Assembly (NCBI GenBank): GCA_051362555.1
Contig: CM120648.1
Location: 19,464,587 to 19,528,586 of the forward strand
Length of the DNA stretch: 64,000 nucleotides
Direction of reading: 5' to 3'
Source of the DNA: Lingula anatina
Lineage: Eukaryota > Animalia > Brachiopoda
Shown here: positions 2,821-64,000 of the stretch, one piece after another
How positions within the stretch are numbered: the first letter of the stretch is position 1
How the letters are laid out: each line of letters opens with the position of its first letter
Notes under the pieces: model-generated
What the model was told of the DNA's origin: nothing
Databases searched by the model: none
Seen by the model: only the letters and a program-made list of their open reading frames with translations
Translations under genes and position numbers: made by a program

Positions 2821-3393
2821 ACATTATTAATAAACTGCATTATACTAACAATCATCATTCCAGATGACCCCCCCTCCCCACAGACCTGTTAACAATTACT
2901 TACATTATTAATAAACTGCATTATACTAACAATCATCATTCCAGATGACCCCCCCTCCTCACAGACCTGTTAACAATTACTTACATTATTAAGAAACTGC
3001 ATTATACTAACAATCATCATTGCAGATGACCCCCCCCCCTCCTCACAGACCTGTTAACAATTACTTTCATTATTAATAAACTGCATTATACTAACAATCA
3101 TCATTCCAGATGACCCCCCCTCCCCACAGACCTGTTAACAATTACTTACATTATTAATAAACTGCATTGTACTAACAATCATCATTCCAGATGACCCCCC
3201 TCCCCACAGGCCTGTTAACAATTACTTACATTATTAATAAACTGCATTATACTAACAATCATCATTCCAGATGACCCCCCTCCCCACAGGCCTATTAACA
3301 GTTACTTACATTATTAATAAACTACATTATACTAACAATCATCATTCCAGATGACCCCCCCTCCCCACAGGCCTGTTAACAATTACTTACATT
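2821..3393. repeat. Tandem array, ~81-bp unit x7, duplicating the DIS3L2 5' splice site and intron start
   Basis: Unit acattattaataaactgc...gttaacaattactt. On the minus strand units read AAT|GTAAGTAATT, the same as the real donor at 3390 (one copy mutated). Confidence 0.95.
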
Positions 3394-4016: not shown

Positions 4017-4121
4017 ATCACAGTACACTCTCTTCACCACTCCAAGCTTTAGCACCAAAACATCAAAACCTTTCTCCAGGACTCCCATCACCATCCCTTG
4101 TTCCTCCAGTGGACCACATTC
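4017..4121 (-). pseudogene. DIS3L2: DIS3L2-like exon ([35 protein letters not shown])
   Basis: 105-nt phase 0/0 exon with acceptor ttatttccag and donor gtgagt. Close match to DIS3L2 [35 protein letters not shown]. Confidence 0.9.
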
Positions 4122-4458
4122 CTGGAAATAATAAGGTAAGACAAATTCAGATATATCCTATATAACTTGTTCTTCTAGTGGACCACATTCCTGGAAAAAA
4201 TAAGGTAAGACAAATTCAGATATATCCTATAACTTGTTCCTCTAGTGGACCACATTCCTGGAAATAATAAGGTATGACAAAGTCAGATATATCCTATAAC
4301 TTGTTCCTCTAGTGGACCACATTCCTGGAAGACATAAGGTATGACAAAGTCAGATATATCCTATAACTTGTTCCTCTAGTGGACCACATTCCTGGAAGAC
4401 ATAAGGTATGACAAAGTCACATATATCCTATAACTTGTTCTTCTAGTGGACCACATTC
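4097..4458. repeat. Tandem array, 67-bp unit x~5.3, duplicating the DIS3L2 3' splice site plus ~25 nt of exon
   Basis: Unit cttgttcctctagtggaccacattcctggaaataataagg...atcctataa; minus strand reads ttccag|GAATGTGGTCCAC in each full copy. Confidence 0.95.
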
Positions 4459-49700: not shown

Positions 49701-50502
49701 AAGGACAGCAAGACATACCACAAGATTTGATTAATGAAGTCAAGGTAACTGATAATATGGTCTAAAATATAGTCAAATAAAGTAACCAGTCTTTAAAGTT
49801 TTAAAATGACATTGACAATTCATCTTGTGACTCTAAAACAATTTTTTTCCACATTTAAAACATTTTCTTTCTCTGTAAGTCCTAATTCAATTCAACAAAG
49901 TTTTTCATTTCTTCATATTCCAAGTGAAAGAGTAAGAATTAGAATTAAATGTATAAGACAATGGGTTGGCTGTTTGGGGTTACCAGTATTGCTAAGTGTA
50001 TTGAAAGTCATTTACATAACATCATGGTTTGAAGGAGTAGAAGTTGTAAATGTGGCTTATTATATTTCTCTTCTAGGAAGGACTTCTGAGTGAAATGGAG
50101 TACAACAAACTGAGGGAGAAAGTGATTGAATTTGCTGCGGAACTTTCCATTTATATGGAAAGAATTTTAGATTACCTGTATCAGTTTAGTGTAATACCAG
50201 ATGAGGAGACAACAAAACTTAAAAATGATGCAAAGAGAAATCCGCAAGATGCATGTAGAGATTTGTTGAAAGCACTTCTTGCAATCAGTCCTAAAAAAGA
50301 ACCAATTAAACATCTGAAAGCTGCATTCAGGGATTCTGGTCTTTGGCATCTGGCAGATGAACTAGAAGTCAGCTACCAGGATGTAGAGGATGAATTACAG
50401 AAACATGGAGGTGGCCGGCCTATTTGTGAAGAGCCGTTAGCAATAGGAATGGCAGCTCCCCCCACACCTGCTACAGGTGAAACCCCTACTGGAGAACATT
50501 AA
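46706..50502 (+). CDS. Death-fold adaptor-like protein (low-complexity N-term, Death domain-like, CARD-like), 474 aa; exons 46706-46735, 48393-48641, 49025-49744, 50077-50502
   Basis: All introns GT-AG and phase 0 with no stops: MAALSSSSMK/RLFKTS...DNED/DLRQG...NEVK/EGLLSEMEY...GEH*. DD-like PPSVKKRLNETLSQNDVWNQV...SIASFISVLLKL. CARD-like LREKVIEFAAEL...ILDYLYQFSVI...ACRDLLKAL...AFRDSGLWHLADEL. Exon 1 is less certain than exons 2-4. Confidence 0.8.
47150..47755. repeat. Degenerate nested tandem repeat in intron 1
   Basis: Recurrent catatcttcagcgggagatcgttcgcg motifs within two ~280-bp higher-order units. Confidence 0.75.
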
Positions 50503-50922
50503 AACTACATGTGTACAGTATTTGACAGTATGTGTCAAGATTGTTTATGCTATTTGGGTCTCCGTGGACTAAGACATATGGTATTCCCACATATATTGAC
50601 ATCAGACAAATAAAGTGGTTGTCTGTATTTAATGATTTTGAACAAGCCTGCTGAAAAACTACAGTGATGCAGACATTTATCTATACTGTTCAGCATCAAA
50701 TGTGAACCCTAACTTTTAACAGGAAGATGACAGAAATTTTAAGCAAAACCCAGTGGACTATGAAACCATCAATCCTGTTAGGAGACTTCTTTGTTGATTT
50801 GTCTTAGATCTCCTAAAACCTATGTTGTGTTCTTATTTTACAATACCAAAAACAACCTTAAGGTTGTCCCTCCAACCTTAAGGTGCGTCAGAGGACACTC
50901 TGTCCTCCTTTTTGACCATATT

Positions 50923-51548
50923 TATGTACAGTACAAGGTGTAAAACCAGTAGAAACAGGTACACAGTGCACCTATTACAGTGTCATGATCCTGTATATGT
51001 TATTATACCCATCTATGTACAAGGTGTAAAAACCAGTAGAAACAGGTACACTGTGCACCTATTACAGTGTCATGATCCTGTATGTGTTATTATACCCATC
51101 TATGTACAAGGTGTAAAACTAGTAGAAACAGGTACACAGTGCACCTATTACAGTGTCATGATCCTGTATGTGTTATTATACCCATCTATGTACAAGGTGT
51201 AAAAACCAGTAGAAACAGGTACACTGTGCACCTATTACAGTGTCATGATCCTGTATATATTATTATACCCATCTATGTACAAGGTGTAAAAACCAGTAGA
51301 AACAGGTACACTGTGCACCTATTACAGTGTCATGATCCTGTATATGTTATTATACCCATCTATGTACAAGGTGTAAAAACCAGTAGAAACAGGTACACTG
51401 TGCACCTATTACAGTGTCATGATCCTGTATATGTTATTATACCCATCTATGTACAAGGTATAAAACTAGTAAAAACAGGTACACTGCACCTATTACAGTG
51501 CCATTATCCTGTATGTGCTATGATAACTTATGCTATTATACCCATCTA
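50923..51548. repeat. Tandem array, 86-87-bp unit x~7
   Basis: Unit gtacaaggtgtaaaaaccagtagaaacaggtacactgtgcacctattacagtgtcatgatcctgtatatgttattatacccatctat. Confidence 0.95.
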
Positions 51549-51747
51549 TTTAAACTAGCTTATAAATTACTCCTTTAGTTCATTCCCACAAACAAAAATG
51601 GATATTTGTAAAAAGCACTGTATATATGTAAAAAGTGTCAATATGCTCTATGTTAATATATTCTTCTGATAATGTCAACACCATGTAATTTATGTAAATA
51701 TATCCCTTAAAGATGGCAACACCACAAATACATGTGGTAAATGTTTT

Positions 51748-52262
51748 AATATGTATACAAGGTATTATACTCTCAGTTTTGTCCCACACAGAGTATAGTT
51801 TGGTAATTTAACACACGTATACATGTAAGTCTATTTATTATATTGATATCAATATGTATACAAGGTATTATACTCTCAGTTTTGTCCCACACAGAGTATA
51901 GTTTGGTAATTTAACACACGTATACATGTAAGTATATTTATTATATTGATATCAATATGTATACAAGGTATTATACTCTCAGTTTTGTCCCACACAGAGT
52001 ATAGTTTGGTAATTTAACACAAGTATACATGTAAGTCTATTTATTATATTGATATCAATATGTATACAAGGTATTATACTCTCAGTTTTGTCCCACACAG
52101 AGTATAGTTTGATAATTTAACACACGTATACATGTAAGTCTATTTACTATATTGATATCAATATGTATACAAGGTATTATACTCTCAGTTTTGTCCCACA
52201 CAGAGTATAGTTTGATAATTTAACATGTGTGTACATGTAAGTCCATTTATTATTTTGATATT
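51748..52262. repeat. Tandem array, 103-bp unit x5
   Basis: Unit aatatgtatacaaggtattatactctcagttttgtcccacacagag...tattgatatc. Confidence 0.95.
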
Positions 52263-52711
52263 ATTCAAGGTGGATGTCTTTATATGTAGTATTGTATTAA
52301 ATTATATTTACATGAGCAGTGTATATATGTAGAAAGTTTTAATAAGCACTTTATGTTAATAAATATTCCCTCAAAGGAGACAACATCACAGATATTTATA
52401 TGTGCAGAAAGTTAAACTGTGTTTCATGTAAGATAAAATATACTTTGTTCTCATTCACAGAATATAGATTGACAGATATCTCAACTTGCTTGTGTATGTA
52501 CTGTATATAAGTGCATCAATTAGTTTTACATTACCCATGGTAGATATTTGAATATTTAATTTTTTTTTGTATTTTTATTTTTAAAAACCACTGAATATGT
52601 GTTAAAAAGTTTTAATAAGTAAGTTAAGTCAATGCATTCAGTCAACAATATGAACACCATATACCTTAACTTACTTCAGTGTATTTATATATTCTCTCAA
52701 AGATGTCAACA

Positions 52712-52763
<52 letters not shown>

Positions 52764-53178
52764 AAAGATGTTACAATATGGAACATATTGAATGTATTTG
52801 ATCTAATATGAACATACATGTACATTTATGTATATTAGTTCAGTAATTAGTTTTAGATTATTCATGGCTTTTATTAAATCACTATAAATATATATGGAAA
52901 GATGGTTCAATATCTAGCATATGTTAAGATATTATGTGGTCACTTACAGAGAACTAAGATTGAAAGATGTTTTAATTTAATAGCTATTGTACGGGTGTGT
53001 ATACGAGTTCATTTATCAGTTTTAGAAAAATAATGTGGCTTTTGCAAAATTACCAAAATACGGACCTTGCAAATAAACTAATTTTCTCTAATTTAAGTTG
53101 TCTTACTTGTATCTTTAAAATATAGGCCTCTATATCGCCTTTCTTTTATGATACTTTATAAAAGCAAATTTGTATTAT

Positions 53179-54787
53179 TTAAGGCCTCTAGGATATTAAA
53201 AATACGTCTAAAACTCGATTTTTAGTTTTTTATACGTTAGAAATAATCAATATTGTATCTAGTACTCAATTAAGTTATATTTGTGAAACACGGACTAAAA
53301 ATATACATTTGGACGAGTTTGTCTACCTGCCCTGACTGGTACGGGTGGCAGGCTTTAGGCTCCGCCTCCGTTGTCAAGCACCGTTACTATGTTGGGCGGG
53401 GCAAGAATGGTTGTCTAACTTCTTAAGCTGTTACGCGTGCCCTGGCAGCCCATAAGTCTTACGTCAGCTAAGCAGAACACAGTTATATACACAGTAATGG
53501 GAAGAAAGAAAGTTGCGAGAAAACGGATGAGCGAGGAAAGCAAGATAATTTTGAAAGATAGTACTTCTGGTGGATGGAGAAACCCCGCATGTCATGAAGG
53601 GGAGTCTTCGAGTATGCAGGGAGCCAGCGCTCGGAAAATCTTGAAGGACGATTTATCGTCGAGCTCCGACAGCGGGGTTGTCAGAAAAAATCGTTAGGCA
53701 ATCATTTTATTCACAATAAAGATTGTAACAGCAAGCAAGTTTATAAGTAATATTGCCACGCAAAACATTTTCAAATTCGCATGTTACGGTCTTGGCACTA
53801 TGTGGCATCATGGCTGATACGTACCCACATTGGGCCATTTCTCGGAGTAATTCTTTCTTTGCTTTCTCAATTTTCGCGTCTTGGTGTGTAGAGCGGCGTC
53901 CATGCACGACGGGTGGCATTATCATCTGCTTGCGCCTCAAGTGATTTTCTTTTTGTTTGTTAGCGCTTCCTTAGACACTTCCTAGACAGTGCACAGACTT
54001 CTACTGCGTCAGGCACAATTATGATTAATTACGTCAGTGAAACGAGAGTAGGTAGACCTACTCAGCTGTCAATCATTTCTCAGGGAATATCGGCTTACGT
54101 GGTGCGAATAAGTTTGCGTACAAAAGTAAGATTTTCTGACATCTAGATAGAAACAAACAACCCAATTTTAACACGTAATGGTGTATAGACCTTCCGATCA
54201 ATAAGATGATAACAGGTAAGGCGGAGGTGCAATTAATTTGCTAAATTAGCCCAATTACCTGAGCCAAATGGTTTATGAGCGATTTCTCAGCTTTGAAGAT
54301 TGATATTATAGTCTTTACTTCAATCCCCATATCTCATTCTTTAACTGTCAGATTGACATGAAATTTGATGTGTCTGTGTTTCAGTATAATATCTAGTGGA
54401 CTGAGTCTTGGTTTTTGGATTGACCTTTTATTTTTGAAGTTATTAATACTGAAATTGGAAGGTCCATATATAATTCGTAAAATTCACGTTTTATCAAAAT
54501 AAAATCAAAAGTAAAAATAATAAGAGAAAATCCTAACAGAGTTTGCTGGTTTTTGTGCTAACCTTTAGATAGCTATTTCAATCGTATTAATAGGTTTTTT
54601 TGTTGAAGAGAAAATCTTGATTAAAAAAATGACAATTTTAGCCCCAAAACGCTGATATTACGTCACTCGTGTTACACTGTGACTACAATCTTTGGAAAAT
54701 TGTTTTGCTTGCTACACCATATCCTTTAGTTATTAGGAAATTTCATTAGCTGCATTAGTTTTGGACTTAATATTCTAGAGGCCTTAA
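53179..54787 (+). mobile_element. Kolobok-type internally deleted element, TTAA TSD
   Basis: ttaa-GGCCTCTAGGATATTAA...TTAATATTCTAGAGGCC-ttaa; CpG-rich interior with short convergent ORF stubs (MGRKKVARKR...). Confidence 0.8.
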
Positions 54788-55582
54788 AGAAAGGGAGGGT
54801 TCCAGATGTCAGCCACTGAAAATTATAACACTTCAATACAACATAATAGTCAAAATTGCTGCCCAGAACACAGTGCTAAAACGTATTTTGATAAAAAAGA
54901 ATCCTCAGAGAGACCACTAGCCTCCAAAAACATAACATATGTTCACCGTGATACAGTTGCTATAAAGGGTAATTCAAATGCAGTCTAAGAGAAAATCTTA
55001 TTCCAATAAACTCTATATCTGGCTACCAATGTGTCATTTGCCCAATATCTAAAGTAGCATACCCTAGGTTCTAGATTCCGGTATTGCCAGCTCGATCTTG
55101 ATTTCATATATAACCCATATCAGCAATACCAATACTAGTAAAAATGACTCCAAGGTATATTGAATATTTACAAGCTAATTTTTACGTTGCTCTGACACTC
55201 AGGGTAAAGTAGCCTCAATTCCCAGATATCTTCAGAGAGAGAGTAGAGCGTTTGCCTCTGCTTTATAAACACTGAAACATCTTATTTTAACTTCTTCAAA
55301 TTTTAGTTTCCTGTAAACAACACAAAAACGGGGAATTTATATAAAATAATAATAATAAACAAACATAATACTCGTATAAATAAAAAATACATATTTGATG
55401 ATCTGTAGAAAATATAGAGTCTAAAAGTGCATTTGTCAACCTGAAATGTATAAAGTTGAAGCCGTTTTATTTTGTGTGTAAACTTGCACATAAATACCCA
55501 GTACATCGACTGCGTATTCTTTTTGTCTCCCTACCGAGTGTTAATAGATATGTTTGAATTAGAATAATAAGATTGTCTTACT

Positions 55583-55883
55583 CAGTGGCGGATTTAGGGA
55601 GGGGGTTCAGTGGAGTCCTGACCCCCCCCCCCCTCCTTCGGTTTCTGAAAAAAAATCACACTAAATATTACCCTTTTGAAATGAGATTTTTAAGTTGCTG
55701 GTTTATAGTTCTTAACCGTTCCAAAAGACACCGTTTGGCATTAATTCAAAACACCAAAATATTTTGGGGCCCTTCAGTGGTCCCCCAACCCCACCACAAG
55801 GAGGCTGAGGGTCAGCTTCGAATCCGAGGTCTGTCATTCGTAAAAGACACTCTCACCCCCTTCAAATCCTGGATCTGCCCCTG
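55583..55883 (+). mobile_element. MITE-like element
   Basis: CAGTGGCGGATTTAGG...CCTGGATCTGCCCCTG imperfect TIRs; an internal fragment also occurs at about 56125-56255. Confidence 0.75.
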
Positions 55884-56377
55884 TCTAACCACTTGTATAA
55901 TGCGTTCAGGAGACAAAAATGGTGTCTTCTTTGTGAAATTGTTTTGCAAATATGCTTAGGCGGGGATGGTTTTTGTTCTTTATCCTTTACCAGCTACGCC
56001 ACAGATCAAACTCAAATGAAGTCAATAGGTAATCCGGCATGGCGGCATGAATGTCATACTTCTCAGCAAGTTTTTTTTTCAAAAGTCACGTCGCCCTTAT
56101 CACTATCAGTGATCTCTCAGTAATCTCTCTTGAAATTAGAATTTTGGTCAGCTGATTCATAGTTCTCAACCGTACCAAACGGCACCGTTTGCCCCCCAAA
56201 ACACTCCACGGAGGCCGAGAGTCGGCTTCTTATCGGAGGCTTGTCATTCCTAAAAAAAGGCGATCACGTAAGATTGCCACCTGACATTTGGGTGCCTTGT
56301 GGCCTGTGAAAGGGAATTCCCCCCCCCCCCGCCCCAGGACGAATAACCTGTAAGAACTCGGCAAAGTGGTACGGTGA

Positions 56378-56647
56378 ACAGTAGCGGATTTAGGGGGTGT
56401 CAAGTGGTTCCTGACCCCCTTCGATTTCTGGAAAACATCAAACCAATGGTCTTCTCTTGAAATTAGAATTTTGACAAGCTGAATCACAGTTATCAACCGT
56501 ACCAAATGGCACCGTTCGCCCTCTAAAATACCAAAATTTTTCCGGTCCCTTCAGCGGGCCCCTGACCACAGTCCAAAGGAGGGGGGGGCGTCGGCGTTGC
56601 ATCCGCGGACCCCCCCCCCCCTCTCAAAAATCCTGGGTCTGCCCCTG
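56378..56647 (+). mobile_element. MITE-like element (same family)
   Basis: CAGTAGCGGATTTAGG...CCTGGGTCTGCCCCTG. Confidence 0.75.
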
Positions 56648-57749
56648 TCCGACACCCATATTCTTTCTTAATTATATCATGAATTTGACTCTCGATTTAT
56701 ACCGCTCACTTAGCAGGTGACAAGATGATACAACGATTAGCGTAGCATTTATATAAGTAATGGATTAAGACAGACATGGAGTATTCGTTATATTCAATGG
56801 CAAAGTGTATCAACATTTTTGGGCAACAATGTTTTTCTTGTTACGTTTTATTAAACTTTATTATTGTGTTTTCAGATTTGAGGGTAATTATTTCCACGAA
56901 TATGATTTCTCGCTTGAGAGAGTAAGGTGGTAGTGACATTATAAAGCCATCTCCGTGCGTTTTATTGAAATATCCCCTCTAACAACGCAGATTTTGCCCT
57001 CAGCGGTATCGGTTATCTGGACAACATATTGTAAAACAGTTTTCACAAAATTTGATAAGGGTGGTTCAAAGGAAGGAAAGAAATGATTACAAATTAAACA
57101 GGCTCTCGATCTTGTATTCTCTTATGCTTCATTACCATTTACATTTTGGTGAAGGTTTGCATTCAATTGTGGGGAGATCTGGAGTTTCATTGGTTTTATT
57201 GAGAAATACAGGATGAGGGTAAACTCTGCGTAGTCTTCAGTAGTAAAACTGGGATATTAAATAAAAAGAATCAAAAAACAACATACACGTTACCAGAGGA
57301 AAGTAGCCTGCAAGTTTGGTTCTTCTCCACCCTCACCTCTCCCCCTCTCTGTTTCTCTCCATCTCTCTTACTCTCTCCCTTTCCCCCTCTATATCTCCCT
57401 CTCTTTTTCTCTCTGTGTGAGTACTAGATTCTCTCTCTCTCTTTCTCTCAAACACTGTAATTCACATGTACAGTATATGTACACAAGATATTGTTTTAAA
57501 ACGCCTTAGGTTGTATTGTGCATAGCAATTGTACAGTATTTTTACAGTGGCTGATTTGCTACATTACTATAGCTTTTGTAAGCAACGTGTTCAAATAAAC
57601 AAAAAATAGTTAAGTTTTAGTCCAATTTTGTTCAATTTTCTTTTTTTTACTCTCCAAACAATTTGCTTTAACATGGAGTCACCCAAGAGAAACATAACCT
57701 TTATTTTACATTCTCAGGTGAAGCAGAGCTTTTTGGGAGTTGTACTGAG

Positions 57750-57972
57750 ATGGCTCCAAATCACAAGTCTACAGCACGGCCACTGAGAACCAACGTGCTG
57801 CAGGATGAGGTGACCGTTAGTGAGGACGCGGAAGTGACCATTACTGGGGACAACACAGAGTTCGTGTTCTCTGCCGCCAGCGAGGTGTCAGAGTTCCTGA
57901 CGTCAAGTTATGACGTCAACGACACGTCATTATTTGACACCATCCCGGACCCAGAACCAGAGATTTTCTACA
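57750..57972 (+). CDS. Probable first coding exon of an unidentified gene (exon 57718-57972)
   Basis: Acceptor ttttacattctcag and donor gtaagt; GC-richer open frame MAPNHKSTARPLRTNVLQDEV...TIPDPEPEIFY, ending in phase 1. Confidence 0.55.
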
Positions 57973-58329
57973 GTAAGTCGTAATTTTATCAGTTGAATTC
58001 GTTCCAAATATGTGGGAAACTTATTTATACACATGAATGACACAAAACACACACATACACACGCGCGCGCACGCACACACACGCACACACACAGAAATAA
58101 TAAAAATTAAACGTTCACTCGAGAAAAATGTTGGACCTTAAGTATGATCTCAAAATCATGGCGATGGTCGATCTTTACATCTACATGTAGGCCTATTTAA
58201 CATACTTGTACAGTGTATCCACTCATTTTCTACAGTGTGATACATGTACTATCGAAAATACTTGCCAAATTAAATCATTATAAAATCATAATAATGGCCG
58301 TAGCGGGATCTCGCGGCTTCGCAGCCTAA

Positions 58330-59573
58330 GGCCACACTTTTTTATTTTTATGGATGACATCCTCTGGGGACCCCAAAATCGGTGCGAGCGGGCGAAAAAA
58401 AAAAAAAAAAACAGTCCAAAAAAAAAAAAAAAAAAATGCTTAAGAAAAGTTATGTTTTCAGTTCACAGCTGGAAACACTAATTTACCACAGAAACACGTA
58501 TCAAACTAACAATATATCTTTATCCATGCTCTCAAAATATTAAAGCATTGTGAATAGGGCCTACTTCGTAGAAAGGTAAAAAGTCATGAATATATATGCT
58601 GCATATTACCAAATCTATTTAATGTTATTTCATGCATTCTGTTGGGATAGCAATCAATAATACAAATATCAAATAAACAGCGTGTCTTTATTTGTACTCT
58701 CAGAAAATTAAAGCATTGTGAACACTTCACAGAATTGTTTAAAAAAATGAAGCAAAGATAGGCCTATGCTTCCTACTACCAAATCTAAAAAAGGTAATTT
58801 CGCACGATGCCATTTGTCTACTTCGACTCACATGTAGCAGCCAACTATCGGGTGGCCTGTCCGACTTTCAATCCACCAAATACCACGACACTCTTGTCGA
58901 CCCTTTTTTCGCTACAAAAAAAAACCTGGTATGTGCTGCTTTGGACTACCCTGAGTGTCAGAGCAACATAAAAGCTAACTAGCTTAAATATACCTTGTGA
59001 TGGAGTCGCTTTTACTAGTAAAATTCCCGTACTAGTTTACCTGGTATTGCGACATTGGTTATATATGAAATCAAGATCGAGCTGGCAATACCGGAATCTA
59101 GAACCTAGGGTTCTTTGGACAGAATGTCACTGAAATTTTCCGGGCGATGATCGCTGGCCAGCCTTTCGTATAATTGTAAAAAGGTGATATCTCCATGTCC
59201 AATATCAATGGCAAACCAATCCAAAACGACGGCCCCCGTTCTCTTTATGACTTTAATTGTCGTGTATTTTGAAATTAATGCTAGAGATGAATTTGACAGC
59301 AAAACGGCCATATTTCCACGTGGTGATAATACGCATGCGCAAAAAGATCATTTTCCGCACTCGGAACTACTCGGATGTCTCCGCAGTCAACAATGACAGT
59401 ATGGAGCTTGGAATTAGCCGAGGATTGCCGATTGCATTTTCAGGCAAATTCAATAACGACGTTTGCGACAACTGACTTCCTTGGGGGGGGGGATTTTATT
59501 TTTTTTTTTTGGAGAACGGACAAAAATCGGTGCGCGCGCAGGATGTCATCCATAAAAATAAAAAAGTGTGGCC
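58330..59573. mobile_element. PIF/Harbinger-type non-autonomous element, TAA TSD
   Basis: taa-GGCCACACTTTTTTATTTTATGGATGACATCC...GGATGTCATCCATAAAAATAAAAAAGTGTGGCC-taa. Internal 58945-59110 has an inverted copy at about 55060-55210. Confidence 0.85.
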
Positions 59574-60039
59574 TAATGCTAAAGACACAGTTCACTCTAG
59601 GGAAATGACAACGCTGGAGAAGGCGGAGCCAATTTGAAGGCTTGTCATTGGAAGAGTTATGTACTGGGAGGGTGATTTAGTAAAAGGGCAAGTCACTGGA
59701 AAAGGGTCAGTCGCTTAAATAAGCAATTCACAGGAGGGATGAGGTGATTGCACATTTAGTTTTCATCATTTGTCTGTTTAATTATTGTGACATTCATTTT
59801 AGCTGAGCCTATAGTGTCTGAGTTGTAGAACATGTCATTTGCTTGATATGTTAATATCTGTGTCACTGTGATTGGATTATATGAGGAATCACAAGTTTTG
59901 AATAATTTCAAAGCAGTTCTTAACAAATAAGAACTATGCTTGCAGTGCAGTTTATATAAAAGGGAGTATGTTTTCTATTGGTAAATGATGCATCAGGTTA
60001 AAATTATTGTCCGATGGTACCTTTTCTTTCCTTTTACAG

Positions 60040-62463
60040 ATTGGTGTGTGGGTTTGGCGGTGCTCTGTTCATTTATTTCCACAGGAAAATTATCCACTTT
60101 ATACGAAAACAGAGGAATTTGTCCTCCTTTCTCCAGAAGAAGTAAGTACCAGTTACAGCAGGAGTCATCCACTGTATGTGACTTACAAGAGGGTTTGCAC
60201 ATGTATATGTCACATACAATAGACCACAAGTGTTTGTATAGCTGCTTCAAGCATTTATAGGATGATTACACTTGTATTTTGCTTACAACACAGTGAAGCA
60301 TGTTAATATAGATGAGCGAGCAATTATTCTATTGTTGCTAACAGTAAATGTTTTTATGATTGTTATCACATAAGGAAATGTTTGGGATAATTATGTGAAA
60401 AGGACATAATGAAGATACCTTTTATTAGCATTCAGTTTATTCCCATTTTATGTGTGATATAATGTGTAGTAAATATAACGTGTTTTATTTATTTCAGTTG
60501 ATTCATCTATCCTACTGTGATAACATTTTATGTGTAGATATAATGTGTAGTAAATATAACGTGTTTTATTTATTTCAGTTGATTCATCTATCCAACTGTG
60601 ATAACATTTTATGTGTAGATATAATGTGTAGTAAATATAACATGTTTTATTTATTTCAGTTGATTCATCTATCCAACTGTGATAACATTTTATGTGTAGA
60701 TATAATGTGTAGTAAATATAACGTGTTTTATTTATTTCAGTTGATTCATCTATCCAACTGTGATAACATTTTATGTGTAGATATAATGTGTAGTAAATAT
60801 AACATGTTTTATTTATTTCAGTTGATTCATCTATCCAACTGTGATAACATTTTATGTGTAGATATAATGTGTAGTAAATATAACATGTTTTATTTATTTC
60901 AGTTGATTCATCTATCCAACTGTGATAACATTTTATGTGTAGATATAATGTGTAGTTAATATAACATGTTTTATTTATTTCAGTCGATTCATCTATCCAA
61001 CTGTGATAACATTTTTGATATCCACTCTATCCTTTCCCCTGGGGCTGGGGCAGTATACAGCTGGAATGGTATGTATCATGGGGGGTGGGGGTGTTATTCT
61101 TCCCCCTGGGGCTGGGGCAGTATACAGCTGGAATGGTATGTTTTCTAGAAACATTTTTCACAAGACTAGGAAGCCAACATATGATTAGTTTGTCCGATTT
61201 ACCAACACAACTTACCAAACACCCCTTTCCTGCATTAGTAATAGATACCTCAAAATGTACAGAGATTATACTGCTGTGGGCATAAATCACTTTCCACAAC
61301 TCATGACAGTCCATCTGTCCTTTCAGTTCTCATGGAGAAATTTAATGTACTTTCAGTTAACTCACCGAGAAGCTGTGAATGAGTTGTTCAGTAACTTCAC
61401 ATGGTCCACGGGGAAAGCAGAGAACTTAGATCTGGACCAACTAGAGGTGCTCAGTCACTGGAATCACCCGGACACCAGCGTCTACGTCACACTGACTTTG
61501 TTTATTATTATACAGGTGAGATTTACTCTTTGTATGAGAAGACCAAACATCAACCCCAGTCTAATTGTATGAAGATTTTAAGAGTTGGCAATTTGAAAAT
61601 TTGTCTGTTATAACCTAACTTTAAAATATGCCATGTGTCTCTGTAATACTTAAATTTTTTGGTATATATAAATAATTTTGAATGGTTGTGCACTGATTTC
61701 AGTTGTACAGAGTGATCTCACACAAACAGTTTACTTATAATAATAATGGATTACATTTGTTTTCAGTTTGTGACAGCTGCTTTGGCTGGTTCCCTCCCCA
61801 TTCCTGCTGGAGTGTTCATTCCTGTCTTCACTATAGGTAAGTTGTGTCATCATTTTACCACTTACTGTTGCCTTGTCAACTCTTCCCCAGGACTGCGGAC
61901 TGTGCAATTACATATTATAGGAAAGCTTTTTTAATAACATTTCATTTTGTTTTGTTGCATTTCTTTGATATGTTAACATGTTCAGAAGTAGGTATGAGCA
62001 TTTTGAGTTCAGTTATATTGATAATTCTTCATTCATTTGAATAATTTTCATCATCCTTGGCTAGTCTACTAATTATTATAAGGTCAGATGCTGAATTTAA
62101 AAAGAATACAAATTAAAGAGTATATGAGTATTAACACATGCTCCCTGTAAAGTCTGGTTTGGAGTGCACTGACCTCGACCTACAGTGACCTTGACCCACC
62201 GTGACCTTGACTTATAGTGACCTGTCCACACTGGTCTGATGGTGTGACACACTTGAAGATTATGACAGCTGTTTTTCTGCCTAAATTCTCCTGCACTATG
62301 CTGCCATCTCCAGGTTGAAATTAGCTAAGAGAATGTTCTTAATTATTCCCAGGTGCTGCCTTTGGTCGTCTTGTAGGAGAGTGTTTGGCGACGTGGTTCC
62401 CCAGTGGAGTGAGGATGGGAGAGCAGGTGTCTCCTATAGTCCCTGGAGGATATGCTGTAGTAG
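60040..62463 (+). CDS. CLCN2: ClC-2-like chloride channel, five central exons: 60040-60141, 60984-61068, 61357-61515, 61767-61836, 62353-62463 (partial, possibly a duplicated fragment)
   Basis: Phase-consistent GT-AG exons: [18 protein letters not shown]..., [66 protein letters not shown]...[10 protein letters not shown]. These are ClC-1/2 motifs including GxFxP. Confidence 0.93.
60445..61014. repeat. Tandem array, 81-bp unit x7, duplicating a ClC 3' splice site plus ~30 nt of exon
   Basis: tgttttatttatttcag|ttgattcatctatccaactgtgataacatttt x6, followed by the real cag|tcgattc at 60984. Confidence 0.97.
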
Positions 62464-62873
62464 GTAAGTGTATGACTACATGGTATCCCAGTGAAGTCAG
62501 GATGGGAGAGCAGGTGTCTCCTATAGTACCTGGAGGATATGCTGTAGTAGGTAAGTGTATGACTACATGGTATCCCAGTGAAGTCAGGATGGGAGAGCAG
62601 GTGTCTCCTATAGTACCTGGAGGATATGCTGTAGTAGGTAAGTGTATGACTACATGGTATCCCAGTGAAGTCAGGATGGGAGAGCAGGTGTCTCCTATAG
62701 TACCTGGAGGATATGCTGTAGTAGGTAAGTGTATGACTACATGGTATCCCAGTGAAGTCAGGATGGGAGAGCAGGTGTCTCCTATAGTACCTGGAGGATA
62801 TGCTGTAGTAGGTGAGTTTATGACTACATGGTATCCCAGTGAAGTCAGGATGGGAGAGCAGGTGTCTCCTATA
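62377..62873. repeat. Tandem array, 87-bp (29-codon) unit x~5.7, derived from the ClC exon and its donor
   Basis: Units start at 62464, 62551, 62638, 62725 and 62812 (partial); each follows GTAGTAG and begins GT[A/G]AGT. Confidence 0.97.
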
Positions 62874-62874
62874 T

Positions 62875-63640
62875 AGGACTTGCATTATTCGAAAGGTGCG
62901 ATGTGCGCATGACCAGAATTGTGCACTGCAGGGGTCAAAATAGTACCGGAAGCGTTGTTGACAGCGATAGGAACACATGATGGAAGCAGAAGACGCGCCG
63001 GGGGCGATATTAAACAAGCCATTTGAGCCGACAATGGTGCCGGAGTTGAAACGTTGGTTAAAATGTAGGTTGCCCACACATCAGGCAAAAAAGAAGAGCT
63101 GATAAAAAGGTATGTTACAAGATATTTTCTTAAATACACGACCAAAAACAAAACCCTTATGTGGTCATTATGTAATTATGTTCACCTGAGTCATTCATTG
63201 GGGAGATAAATTTGTCACCTGGTTCAGGCAATTATCTGATACAATCTCTGAGGTGGGCTAGTGCACTGTACAATAAAATTAGTACAAGCTCCCTGTCATT
63301 ATTAGTGCATCTATCATTCGTTTCTTCATTATCCTTCTGTTGTGTATCCAAGTAGATTTCGGTTAAAAATTTTCTGTTTTGTCATCAGTCTAATATGTAT
63401 GTATGTAAATAATCACTGTTATAGATGTATTGATGATGACTTTAATAATTATTTTCATGACTATTTTTTACTTGTTTTATAGGTGTAAACTGTACAGTGA
63501 GAATAGAGAGAGAAACAAAATATTGGATCCAGACAGTGGAGTTTGGAAGAGAAAATTAGAAGTAGGCCTACCAGATTGAAGTTTGAATCAAGACAGTGGA
63601 GAATGGACCAAGCCCTTGAAGGGAATGCCCAAACCGTTTT
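62875..63640 (+). mobile_element. 5' part of an ISL2EU-like DNA transposon with a decayed spliced SAP-domain ORF (62977-63109, 63483-~63637)
   Basis: MMEAEDAPGAILNKPFEPTMVPELKRWLKCR-fs-AHTSGKKEELIKR is a SAP motif, spliced to CKLYSENRERNKILDPDSG...WTKPLKGMP. It starts abruptly after AT within the 87-bp array. Superfamily is inferred and the right end is not in the window. Confidence 0.55.
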
Positions 63641-64000
63641 TTTTTTTTTTAATATTTGTCTTTTAATAAATACAATTCAAGATTTTGTTTCACAATTTTA
63701 TTTTGCATAATAAAACCAATGATGTTGCCTTGGAAATATCTTTCCAAGGTACCTTATGATATTTCATGTTTTAAAATGCAATGTTTTAAACATTTTCTAG
63801 ATATGTTCAAGTGCAATGTGATAATAAAAATGTGATATTTGGTAAAATTGTTCTCTTTTTTGTTATTTGCATAAGTAATATACGATTCAATACTCCTTCA
63901 CAGTCAGGATTAAACCTGGTTTTAGTTTTACTGAGGTCTAAGCAATGGCGATAACAAAACTCTTAAACTAAAGTAAAACTAAAACCAGCTTTAACCTTGC

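What the first reader, a model, noticed from the sequence alone, without database searches (positions are those of the whole stretch)
62377..62873. ClC 5' splice site built from exon sequence: in-frame ladder of five donors
Seen: the 87-nt unit is entirely homologous to the exon ([13 protein letters not shown] vs [13 protein letters not shown]). Exonic GTAG-GAGAGT corresponds to GTAG|GTAAGT in the copies and GTGAGT in the last one, with GTAGG microhomology at the unit boundary. The array has no stop codon. Of 11 exon-vs-copy differences, 10 lie in the first ~36 nt and only 1 in the last ~51 nt. Inference: the present intron start is recycled exon, as in the tandem-duplication model of splice-site/intron origin, with ongoing homogenisation of the 3' part. 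Use of distal donors would add 1-4 29-aa modules just after the GVFIP selectivity motif.
Basis: partly seen in the sequence, partly recalled or inferred. Interest (0 to 1): 0.75.

Follow-up and report, generated by a model that had tools for sequence, protein, structure and literature searches.

The report
Splice-donor "mirage" repeat, brachiopod chloride channel
In the lamp shell Lingula, the end of one chloride-channel exon and its splice signal are repeated four and a half more times inside the next intron; the signal was likely inherited from the old intron rather than newly made, no RNA read was seen to use the extra copies, and this repeat type is already known from lancelets and a human gene.

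Summary
The array is real: the last 87 nt of a CLC-2 exon, four identical copies and a 62-nt partial copy, five in-frame donors, no stop. The gene is Lingula anatina CLC-2. The "donor built from exon" reading mostly fails. Contigs in 2 of 2 DNA runs show this exon end followed by GTAA and exon-unrelated intron sequence, so the unit is exon nt 5-87 plus the old donor's GTAA; only +5 onward is exon-derived. No new intron arose. In two RNA runs laid at 25-nt resolution no read covers copy-specific bases; 3 of 3 long-anchored junction reads use the first donor. Power is low and most reads come from other CLCN2 versions. The window holds only a 5'-truncated CLCN2 piece; 3 reads splice it out of frame behind a CARD-like gene. 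The lack of stops is expected (59-70%). The 5'/3' divergence asymmetry is real (p 0.0006-0.003). A multi-copy, transposon-like element cuts the last copy. This is a "mirage" minisatellite (PMC3087553); the scan has noted such arrays before in this genome and in others. Ordinary.

The parts
62353..62463 (+). CLC-2 exon ([10 protein letters not shown]...PGGYAVV, phase 1/1); its last 87 nt are the template of the array
   Evidence: human ClC-2 467-502, E 8e-9; identical to Lingula P0002 residues 815-849; RNA joints into 62353
62464..62469 (+). First (authentic) donor GTAAGT; +1..+4 GTAA shared with the exon-unrelated intron start, +5/+6 exon-derived
   Evidence: 3 X19 reads leave at 62464 into the next ClC exon; X1 and X2 contigs continue GTAA then unrelated sequence
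62464..62811 (+). Four identical 87-nt copies, each ending at a spare in-frame donor
   Evidence: unit held without differences by contigs of X1 and X2 (records 5, 10, 11)
62812..62873 (+). Fifth, partial copy (62 nt, donor GTGAGT), cut after CCTATA
62874..63110 (+). Start of a multi-copy, transposon-like element (begins TAGGAC, at a CTATAG site of the unit); right end not located; family not identified
   Evidence: 8 contigs with other flanks end at 62869-62878 and depth jumps there; no Pfam or PDB hit for its short peptide
60040..60141 (+). First ClC exon held in the window (residue 323 of P0001 onward)
   Evidence: 8 X17 reads join it to an upstream ClC exon that is not in the window
60444..61015 (+). 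Second mirage in the same gene: 81-nt x 7 array over the acceptor; six spare acceptors are followed by TGA, the real exon (60984-61068) by CGA
   Evidence: 21 of 21 listed junction reads use 60984, no depth over 60395-60928 in 4 runs
61028..61141 (+). Third duplication in the same gene: 67-nt x 2 over the donor at 61068
   Evidence: 18 of 18 listed junction reads use the first donor
61357..61515 (+). ClC exon, 100% identical to Lingula anatina CLC-2 models P0001 and P0002
   Evidence: RNA joints
61767..61836 (+). ClC exon holding GVFIP
   Evidence: RNA joints
50077..50476 (+). CARD-like exon of the upstream gene whose internal donor at 50476 is joined to 60040 in 3 reads, putting the ClC exons out of frame
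   Evidence: frame fixed by P0003 (98%) and a weak CARD hit, E 7.6e-4, below Pfam's cut-off

Best explanation
This is a splice-donor 'mirage' minisatellite: a tandem repeat of exon nt 5-87 plus the first four bases (GTAA) of the intron, likely made by slippage or unequal exchange at the GTAGG look-alike inside the exon, and likely silent because splicing takes the first donor. Shown: the array, its five donors, an exon-unrelated GTAA intron start for the same exon in two DNA runs, splicing at the first donor in the few informative reads, two more exon-edge duplications in the same gene, and a multi-copy element that cuts the last copy. Inferred: (1) the first duplication kept the old GT(AA) and changed GTAATA to GTAAGT with exon bases; (2) the 5' 35 nt then decayed as intron (6 of 7 remaining changes go to A/T, 4 of 7 change the amino acid); (3) the 3' part was refreshed from the exon later, by a second, phase-shifted duplication or by conversion that spares the array's edge; (4) the unit was amplified and then interrupted by the element; (5) the window's locus is a 5'-truncated CLCN2 duplicate that likely makes no channel, so the open frame is a leftover of exon origin.
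For: GTAA + unrelated intron start in X1 and X2 contigs, no homology to exon or copy. Zero depth over all copy-specific bins in X15 and X19, and 3 of 3 long-anchored X19 junction reads leave at 62464. The 4 X19 reads first placed at a copy end cover only unit positions 52-87 and are explained by that lineage's exon having the copy's A at position 65. Neighbouring arrays: 21 of 21 and 18 of 18 listed junction reads use the authentic site. A stop-free copy is expected in 59-70% of simulations. Mosaic age: copies share C35 with the diverged X19 exon but A44/G47 with the window exon against X15 (3 of 3), X19 (3 of 3) and one contig each of X1 and X2. tblastn finds no CLC-2 residues before 323 in the window; 3 X14 reads join 50476 to 60040, giving a stop 122 nt into the ClC part. 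Known class: PMC3087553 section 16, PMC3902484 passage, PMC1557585 abstract.
Against: The RNA test is weak: about 5-6 informative reads, and those of X15 and X19 carry G44/T47, so they come from other CLCN2 versions that may lack the array. In X14 one read ends at a copy end (62551) and a second read could run up to 24 nt into copy 1; the coarse bins cannot settle this. The fifth donor GTGAGT has the exon's G at +3, which fits a GAGAGT-to-GTGAGT-to-GTAAGT series as well as a later A-to-G change. The GTAA-unrelated contig may be an array-free version or the far end of the array beyond the element; no piece links it to either. The polarity of positions 35, 44 and 47 rests on 3 reads per run. The chimeric junction rests on 3 reads of one run. 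The missing 5' exons could lie more than 60 kb upstream; no genome was held.
Confidence: 0.82

Rival explanations
1. One reading: the whole 87 nt of exon was duplicated, the junction first read GAGAGT, and point changes turned exon bases into a new donor (a splice site born from exon sequence).
For: The unit aligns with the exon over its whole length; the last donor GTGAGT is one change from GAGAGT; +5/+6 of the donor are exon-type.
Against: The same exon is followed by GTAA in the exon-unrelated intron start, so two chosen changes would have to rebuild exactly the old letters; a crossover four bases into the intron needs none.
Confidence: 0.08
2. Functional donor ladder: an array-bearing, full-length CLCN2 allele uses distal donors and makes channels with 1-4 extra 29-residue modules, which in register would lengthen the loop between two helices rather than break them (helix layout recalled).
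For: 87 is a multiple of 3, no stop in any full copy, donors are consensus; changes such as L to M and F to Y are mild; one X14 read ends at a copy end; repeats at exon edges can alter splicing in duplicated human genes (PMC2812944, abstract).
Against: No read over copy-specific bases in X15 or X19; stop-free by chance 59-70%; 6 of 12 arrays listed in the window have a period divisible by 3, among them the acceptor array whose copies carry TGA; the window locus lacks codons 1-322 and is spliced out of frame; F7 pseudo-donors stay silent (PMC1557585, abstract).
Confidence: 0.05
3. Assembly artefact: the array or the truncated locus was made by mis-assembly.
For: Four copies are identical; no contig spans the whole stretch; the two RefSeq models of this gene are visibly broken.
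Against: The unit, with its junction, is in contigs of two DNA runs of different samples and studies, though one may be the window's source; copy-specific changes cannot come from collapse; RNA joins the upstream gene to the ClC piece. The copy number may still be wrong.
Confidence: 0.05

Closest known systems
Amphioxus 'mirage' minisatellites (Adh3, globins BflGb6/BflGb9, troponin C, PGBD5). Read: PMC3087553 section 16 and passages; PMC3902484 one passage. The original Adh3 paper (Canestro 2002) was not held and is known only through these.
   Same: Head-to-tail unit over an exon-intron boundary; spare GT signals; interior copies near-identical, edge units divergent; both donor and acceptor kinds in one gene; authentic site used.
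   Different: Brachiopod host; the unit holds only 4 intron bases, so it looks wholly exonic and keeps an open frame; cut by a mobile-element-like insert; lies in a truncated gene copy.
Human F7 intron 7 37-bp VNTR (PMC1557585; abstract and outline read)
   Same: First unit spans the exon-intron boundary; identical donors follow; the most upstream is used.
   Different: 87-nt, frame-preserving unit; scanning was tested by mutation in F7 and only inferred here.
Intron gain by tandem duplication (Rogers model; ATP2A1; potato RdRp). PMC4974935, passages read
   Same: Tandem duplication of exon sequence with AG-GT at the joints.
   Different: No new intron: the donor position and the downstream acceptor are those of the other CLCN2 versions; GT comes from the old intron; the exon has AGGA, not AGGT, at the homologous place.
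Variable internal tandem repeats in human segmental duplicates (PMC2812944; abstract read)
   Same: Repeat at an exon edge in a recently duplicated gene copy.
   Different: There some repeats enter the mRNA or form new introns; none was seen to here.

Membership tests
mirage minisatellite | Tandem unit spans an exon-intron boundary | tested here: met
   unit = exon nt 5-87 + GTAA, the GTAA shared with the exon-unrelated intron start
mirage minisatellite | Copies carry spare splice signals | tested here: met
   four spare donors, GTAAGT x3 and GTGAGT x1
mirage minisatellite | Normal splicing uses the authentic site | tested here: inconclusive
   3 of 3 long-anchored reads at the first donor, none over copy-specific bases, but mostly from other CLCN2 versions; met for the two neighbouring arrays, 21 of 21 and 18 of 18
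mirage minisatellite | Interior units homogenised, edge units excluded | tested here: met
   copies 1-4 identical; exon (11) and last copy (2 in 62 nt) differ
mirage minisatellite | Length varies between haplotypes | tested here: inconclusive
   an exon end without following copy exists, but contigs collapse repeats and depth is no copy number
Rogers-type intron gain | Duplicated exon segment holds AGGT that supplies both new splice sites | tested here: not met
   exon reads AGGA at the homologous place; GTAA is shared with the old intron start
Rogers-type intron gain | A new intron position absent from other versions of the gene | tested here: not met
   reads from other CLCN2 versions splice at the same position; position in vertebrate CLCN2 not tested
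Alternative in-frame 5' splice sites (isoform ladder) | Transcripts that include copy sequence | tested here: inconclusive
   none seen in X15, X19; at most one partial read possible in X14; low depth
Functional CLC-2 gene (window locus) | Full N-terminal half within the locus, spliced in frame | tested here: not met
   no match to residues 1-322 in the 60 kb upstream; out-of-frame junction to the CARD-like gene in 3 reads; DNA beyond the window not available

The most novel reading that the evidence does not exclude
An array-bearing, full-length CLCN2 allele exists in Lingula and uses the distal donors, so that a length-variable minisatellite sets how many 29-residue modules are added to a loop of a ClC-2 channel: a mirage recruited as an in-frame isoform dial.
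Probability: 0.05. Interest if true: 0.6.

Novelty: new member of a known kind. Interest (0 to 1): 0.15.

Why it matters
As it stands, little: one more mirage, in a genome where they appear common. Its small value is as a worked example of how such arrays form: the old intron start is still visible in other versions of the gene, the crossover can be placed about four bases into the intron, and the unit is a mosaic of an older 5' and a younger 3' part. Mirages outside lancelets and humans were not found in print by my searches (titles and abstract starts only, open-access library), so their spread in brachiopods may be unreported, but that is a genome-wide point, not this array's. It would matter if distal donors proved to be used in a full-length allele.

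Tried and rejected
No whole genome was held, so the parent locus and the DNA beyond 64000 could not be read. No RNA holder was listed by the index; raw RNA runs of the same species label were laid instead, 6-30% of each run read. Reading the four X19 reads placed at 62551 as distal-donor use was rejected: their anchors cover only unit positions 52-87 and the exon of that lineage has the copy's base at 65. Reading the copy as a diverged coding paralog or mutually exclusive exon was rejected: no acceptor precedes it, 4 of 7 remaining changes alter the amino acid, and changes lean to A/T. The rest of the fifth copy and the element's right end are not in the window. Single exons gave no Pfam hit. 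Canestro 2002 and Zhuo 2007 were not held. No structure was predicted. No supplements were read; those of PMC3087553 hold the mirage alignments and could sharpen the comparison.

Full report
Observation. The array is as described. The exon runs 62353-62463; its last 87 nt are followed by four copies identical to one another and a 62-nt partial copy; donors end at 62463, 62550, 62637, 62724 and 62811; the frame is open to a TAG at 62874; exon and copy 1 differ at 11 places, 10 in unit positions 2-35 and one at 65. Tandem Repeats Finder gives period 87, 5.4 copies, 98%. The diverged 5' part is homologous beyond chance (21 of 29, p 9e-7) and the asymmetry is significant (Fisher 3.6e-4). The exon is human ClC-2 467-502 (E 8e-9). 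A neighbouring exon is 100% identical to two Lingula anatina CLC-2 models.

The locus. The window holds five ClC exons, 60040-62463. tblastn with both models finds nothing before residue 323 in the 60 kb upstream, which holds other genes. Eight X17 reads join 60040 to an upstream ClC exon whose sequence is not in the window, so they come from a full-length locus elsewhere or far upstream. Three X14 reads instead carry 19 loose letters that match 50453-50471 with one mismatch, chance 0.00: they splice a CARD-like exon (P0003, 98%) to the ClC piece. That junction is phase 1 where ClC needs phase 2 and meets a stop 122 nt into the ClC part. The simplest reading is a 5'-truncated CLCN2 duplicate transcribed as the tail of another gene. 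This rests on 3 reads of one run; no genome was held to check it.

Where the donor came from. One contig each in DNA runs X1 and X2 follows the exon end with GTAA and then leaves the window's sequence (TATCATG...). Those 30 letters match the exon at 4 and the copy at 7 positions, and their local score is reached by 1276 and 1545 of 2000 shuffles. So an exon-unrelated intron start exists and shares GTAA with the array's donors. The unit is best drawn as exon nt 5-87 plus intron +1..+4, with the crossover in the look-alike GTAGGAGA / GTAGGTAA. Two of the 11 differences are then old intron letters, not mutated exon. Whether the contig is an array-free version or the array's far end is not shown; either way GT(AA) is inherited.

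The asymmetry. Other versions of the exon carry the copy's base at position 14 (X14, X17, X19; X1, X2, X15, X19), at 65 (X15 2 of 3, X19 3 of 3) and at 35 (X19 3 of 3). Without positions 2, 3, 14 and 65, seven changes remain in positions 5-35 and none in 36-87 (Fisher 6e-4; 0.003 allowing any span; 0.002 and 0.005 if 35 is dropped too). Six of the seven go to A or T and four change the amino acid, as for neutral decay in a 36% G+C genome. At 44 and 47 the copies side with the window exon against X15 (3 of 3), X19 (3 of 3) and one contig each of X1 and X2; at 35 they side with the diverged X19 lineage. This suggests an old 5' part and a 3' part copied from the exon later. A second, phase-shifted duplication or conversion that spares the array's edge would both give this; I cannot tell them apart. 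Edge units escaping homogenisation is described for the BflGb6 mirage (PMC3087553, section 16).

Splicing. At 25-nt resolution X15 and X19 have zero depth over 62465-62514, 62565-62764 and 62815-62864, that is, over all copy-specific bases; three X19 reads anchored through the exon leave at 62464 into the next ClC exon. Four short-anchored X19 reads fit a copy end, but cover only positions 52-87, where that lineage's exon equals the copy. In X14 the 57 letters of depth in 62442-62530 fit two reads spliced at the first donor plus one short-anchored read ending at 62551; a read running up to 24 nt into copy 1 cannot be excluded (arithmetic). X11 had no read on this exon. Against my reading: these are few reads, and the X15 and X19 reads carry G44/T47, so they come from versions that may lack the array. 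The two neighbouring duplications are better covered: 21 of 21 listed junction reads use the last acceptor of the 81-nt array, with no depth over the spare ones, and 18 of 18 use the first donor of the 67-nt pair; one X17 read reaches into the second 67-nt copy and is unresolved. An exon-derived, in-frame copy stays stop-free in 70%, 64% and 59% of simulations with 7, 9 and 11 random changes, so the open frame is no sign of selection. The 81-nt array is also a multiple of three, yet its copies carry TGA.

The right end. At 62869-62878 three X1 and five X2 contigs arrive from other flanks and depth rises many-fold: a dispersed element starts at about 62874, in the unit's CTATAG. The rest of the copy is not in the window. 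The family was not identified.

Comparison. Tandem repeats over exon-intron boundaries are known as mirages in lancelet Adh3, globin, troponin C and PGBD5 genes, where they do not disturb splicing (PMC3087553, section and passages; PMC3902484, passage). In human F7 identical donors behind the real one stay silent by upstream-first choice (PMC1557585, abstract). The array meets three defining features and is inconclusive on two. It fails the Rogers intron-gain model on both features tested (PMC4974935, passages). In this window at least five arrays sit at exon edges: three in ClC and two in a DIS3L2-like gene on the minus strand. Earlier notes of this scan report the same for other parts of this genome and for other animals (unchecked). 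My searches found no paper on mirages in Lingula (listings only).

Verdict. A new member of a known kind, probably neutral, in what is likely a non-coding ClC remnant. Interest 0.15. The isoform-dial reading is not excluded but has about 5% odds.

Noticed in passing
window 50476 to 60040: Three reads of run X14 splice a CARD-like exon to the truncated ClC piece, out of frame: a chimeric transcript from a partial gene duplication. The RefSeq model P0003 reads through this donor.
   Followed up: partly
window 60444-61015 and 61028-61141: Two more exon-edge duplications around one 85-nt ClC exon (81 nt x 7 over the acceptor, 67 nt x 2 over the donor); all six spare acceptors are followed by TGA where the real exon has CGA.
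   Followed up: yes
window 60140-60191: Three X14 reads go back 52 bases with 26 extra letters: a further donor-edge duplication in that animal, absent from the window.
   Followed up: no
window 2821-3393 and 4097-4458, minus strand: Arrays at a donor (81 nt x 7) and over an acceptor (67 nt x 5) of a DIS3L2-like gene (exon 4017-4121, E 2e-9). The exon next to the first array has an in-frame TGA, so this gene copy may be broken.
   Followed up: partly
window 62874-63600: Multi-copy element starting TAGGAC at a CTATAG site, transcribed in X15 and X19, with a frameshifted peptide that looks like a SAP domain (recalled; no database hit).
   Followed up: partly
window 58323-59580: A 1.26-kb element with 41-nt inverted ends, 95% complementary, just upstream of the ClC piece; could mark the edge of the duplication.
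   Followed up: no
window 57718-57972: An exon-like open frame with good splice sites between the CARD-like gene and the ClC piece; no Pfam hit, not in P0003-P0005.
   Followed up: partly
runs X17 and X19 over window 60040-62463: Reads labelled as the same species differ from the window at about 7 in 100 exon bases, against near identity for X14: a diverged lineage or paralog.
   Followed up: no
P0001 and P0002: Both RefSeq CLC-2 models lack the exon after PGGYAVV that RNA reads show, and P0002 repeats its CBS region; the annotation of this gene is broken.
   Followed up: no
window 63905-63999: Inverted repeat with 38-nt arms, 82% complementary, 19 nt apart.
   Followed up: no
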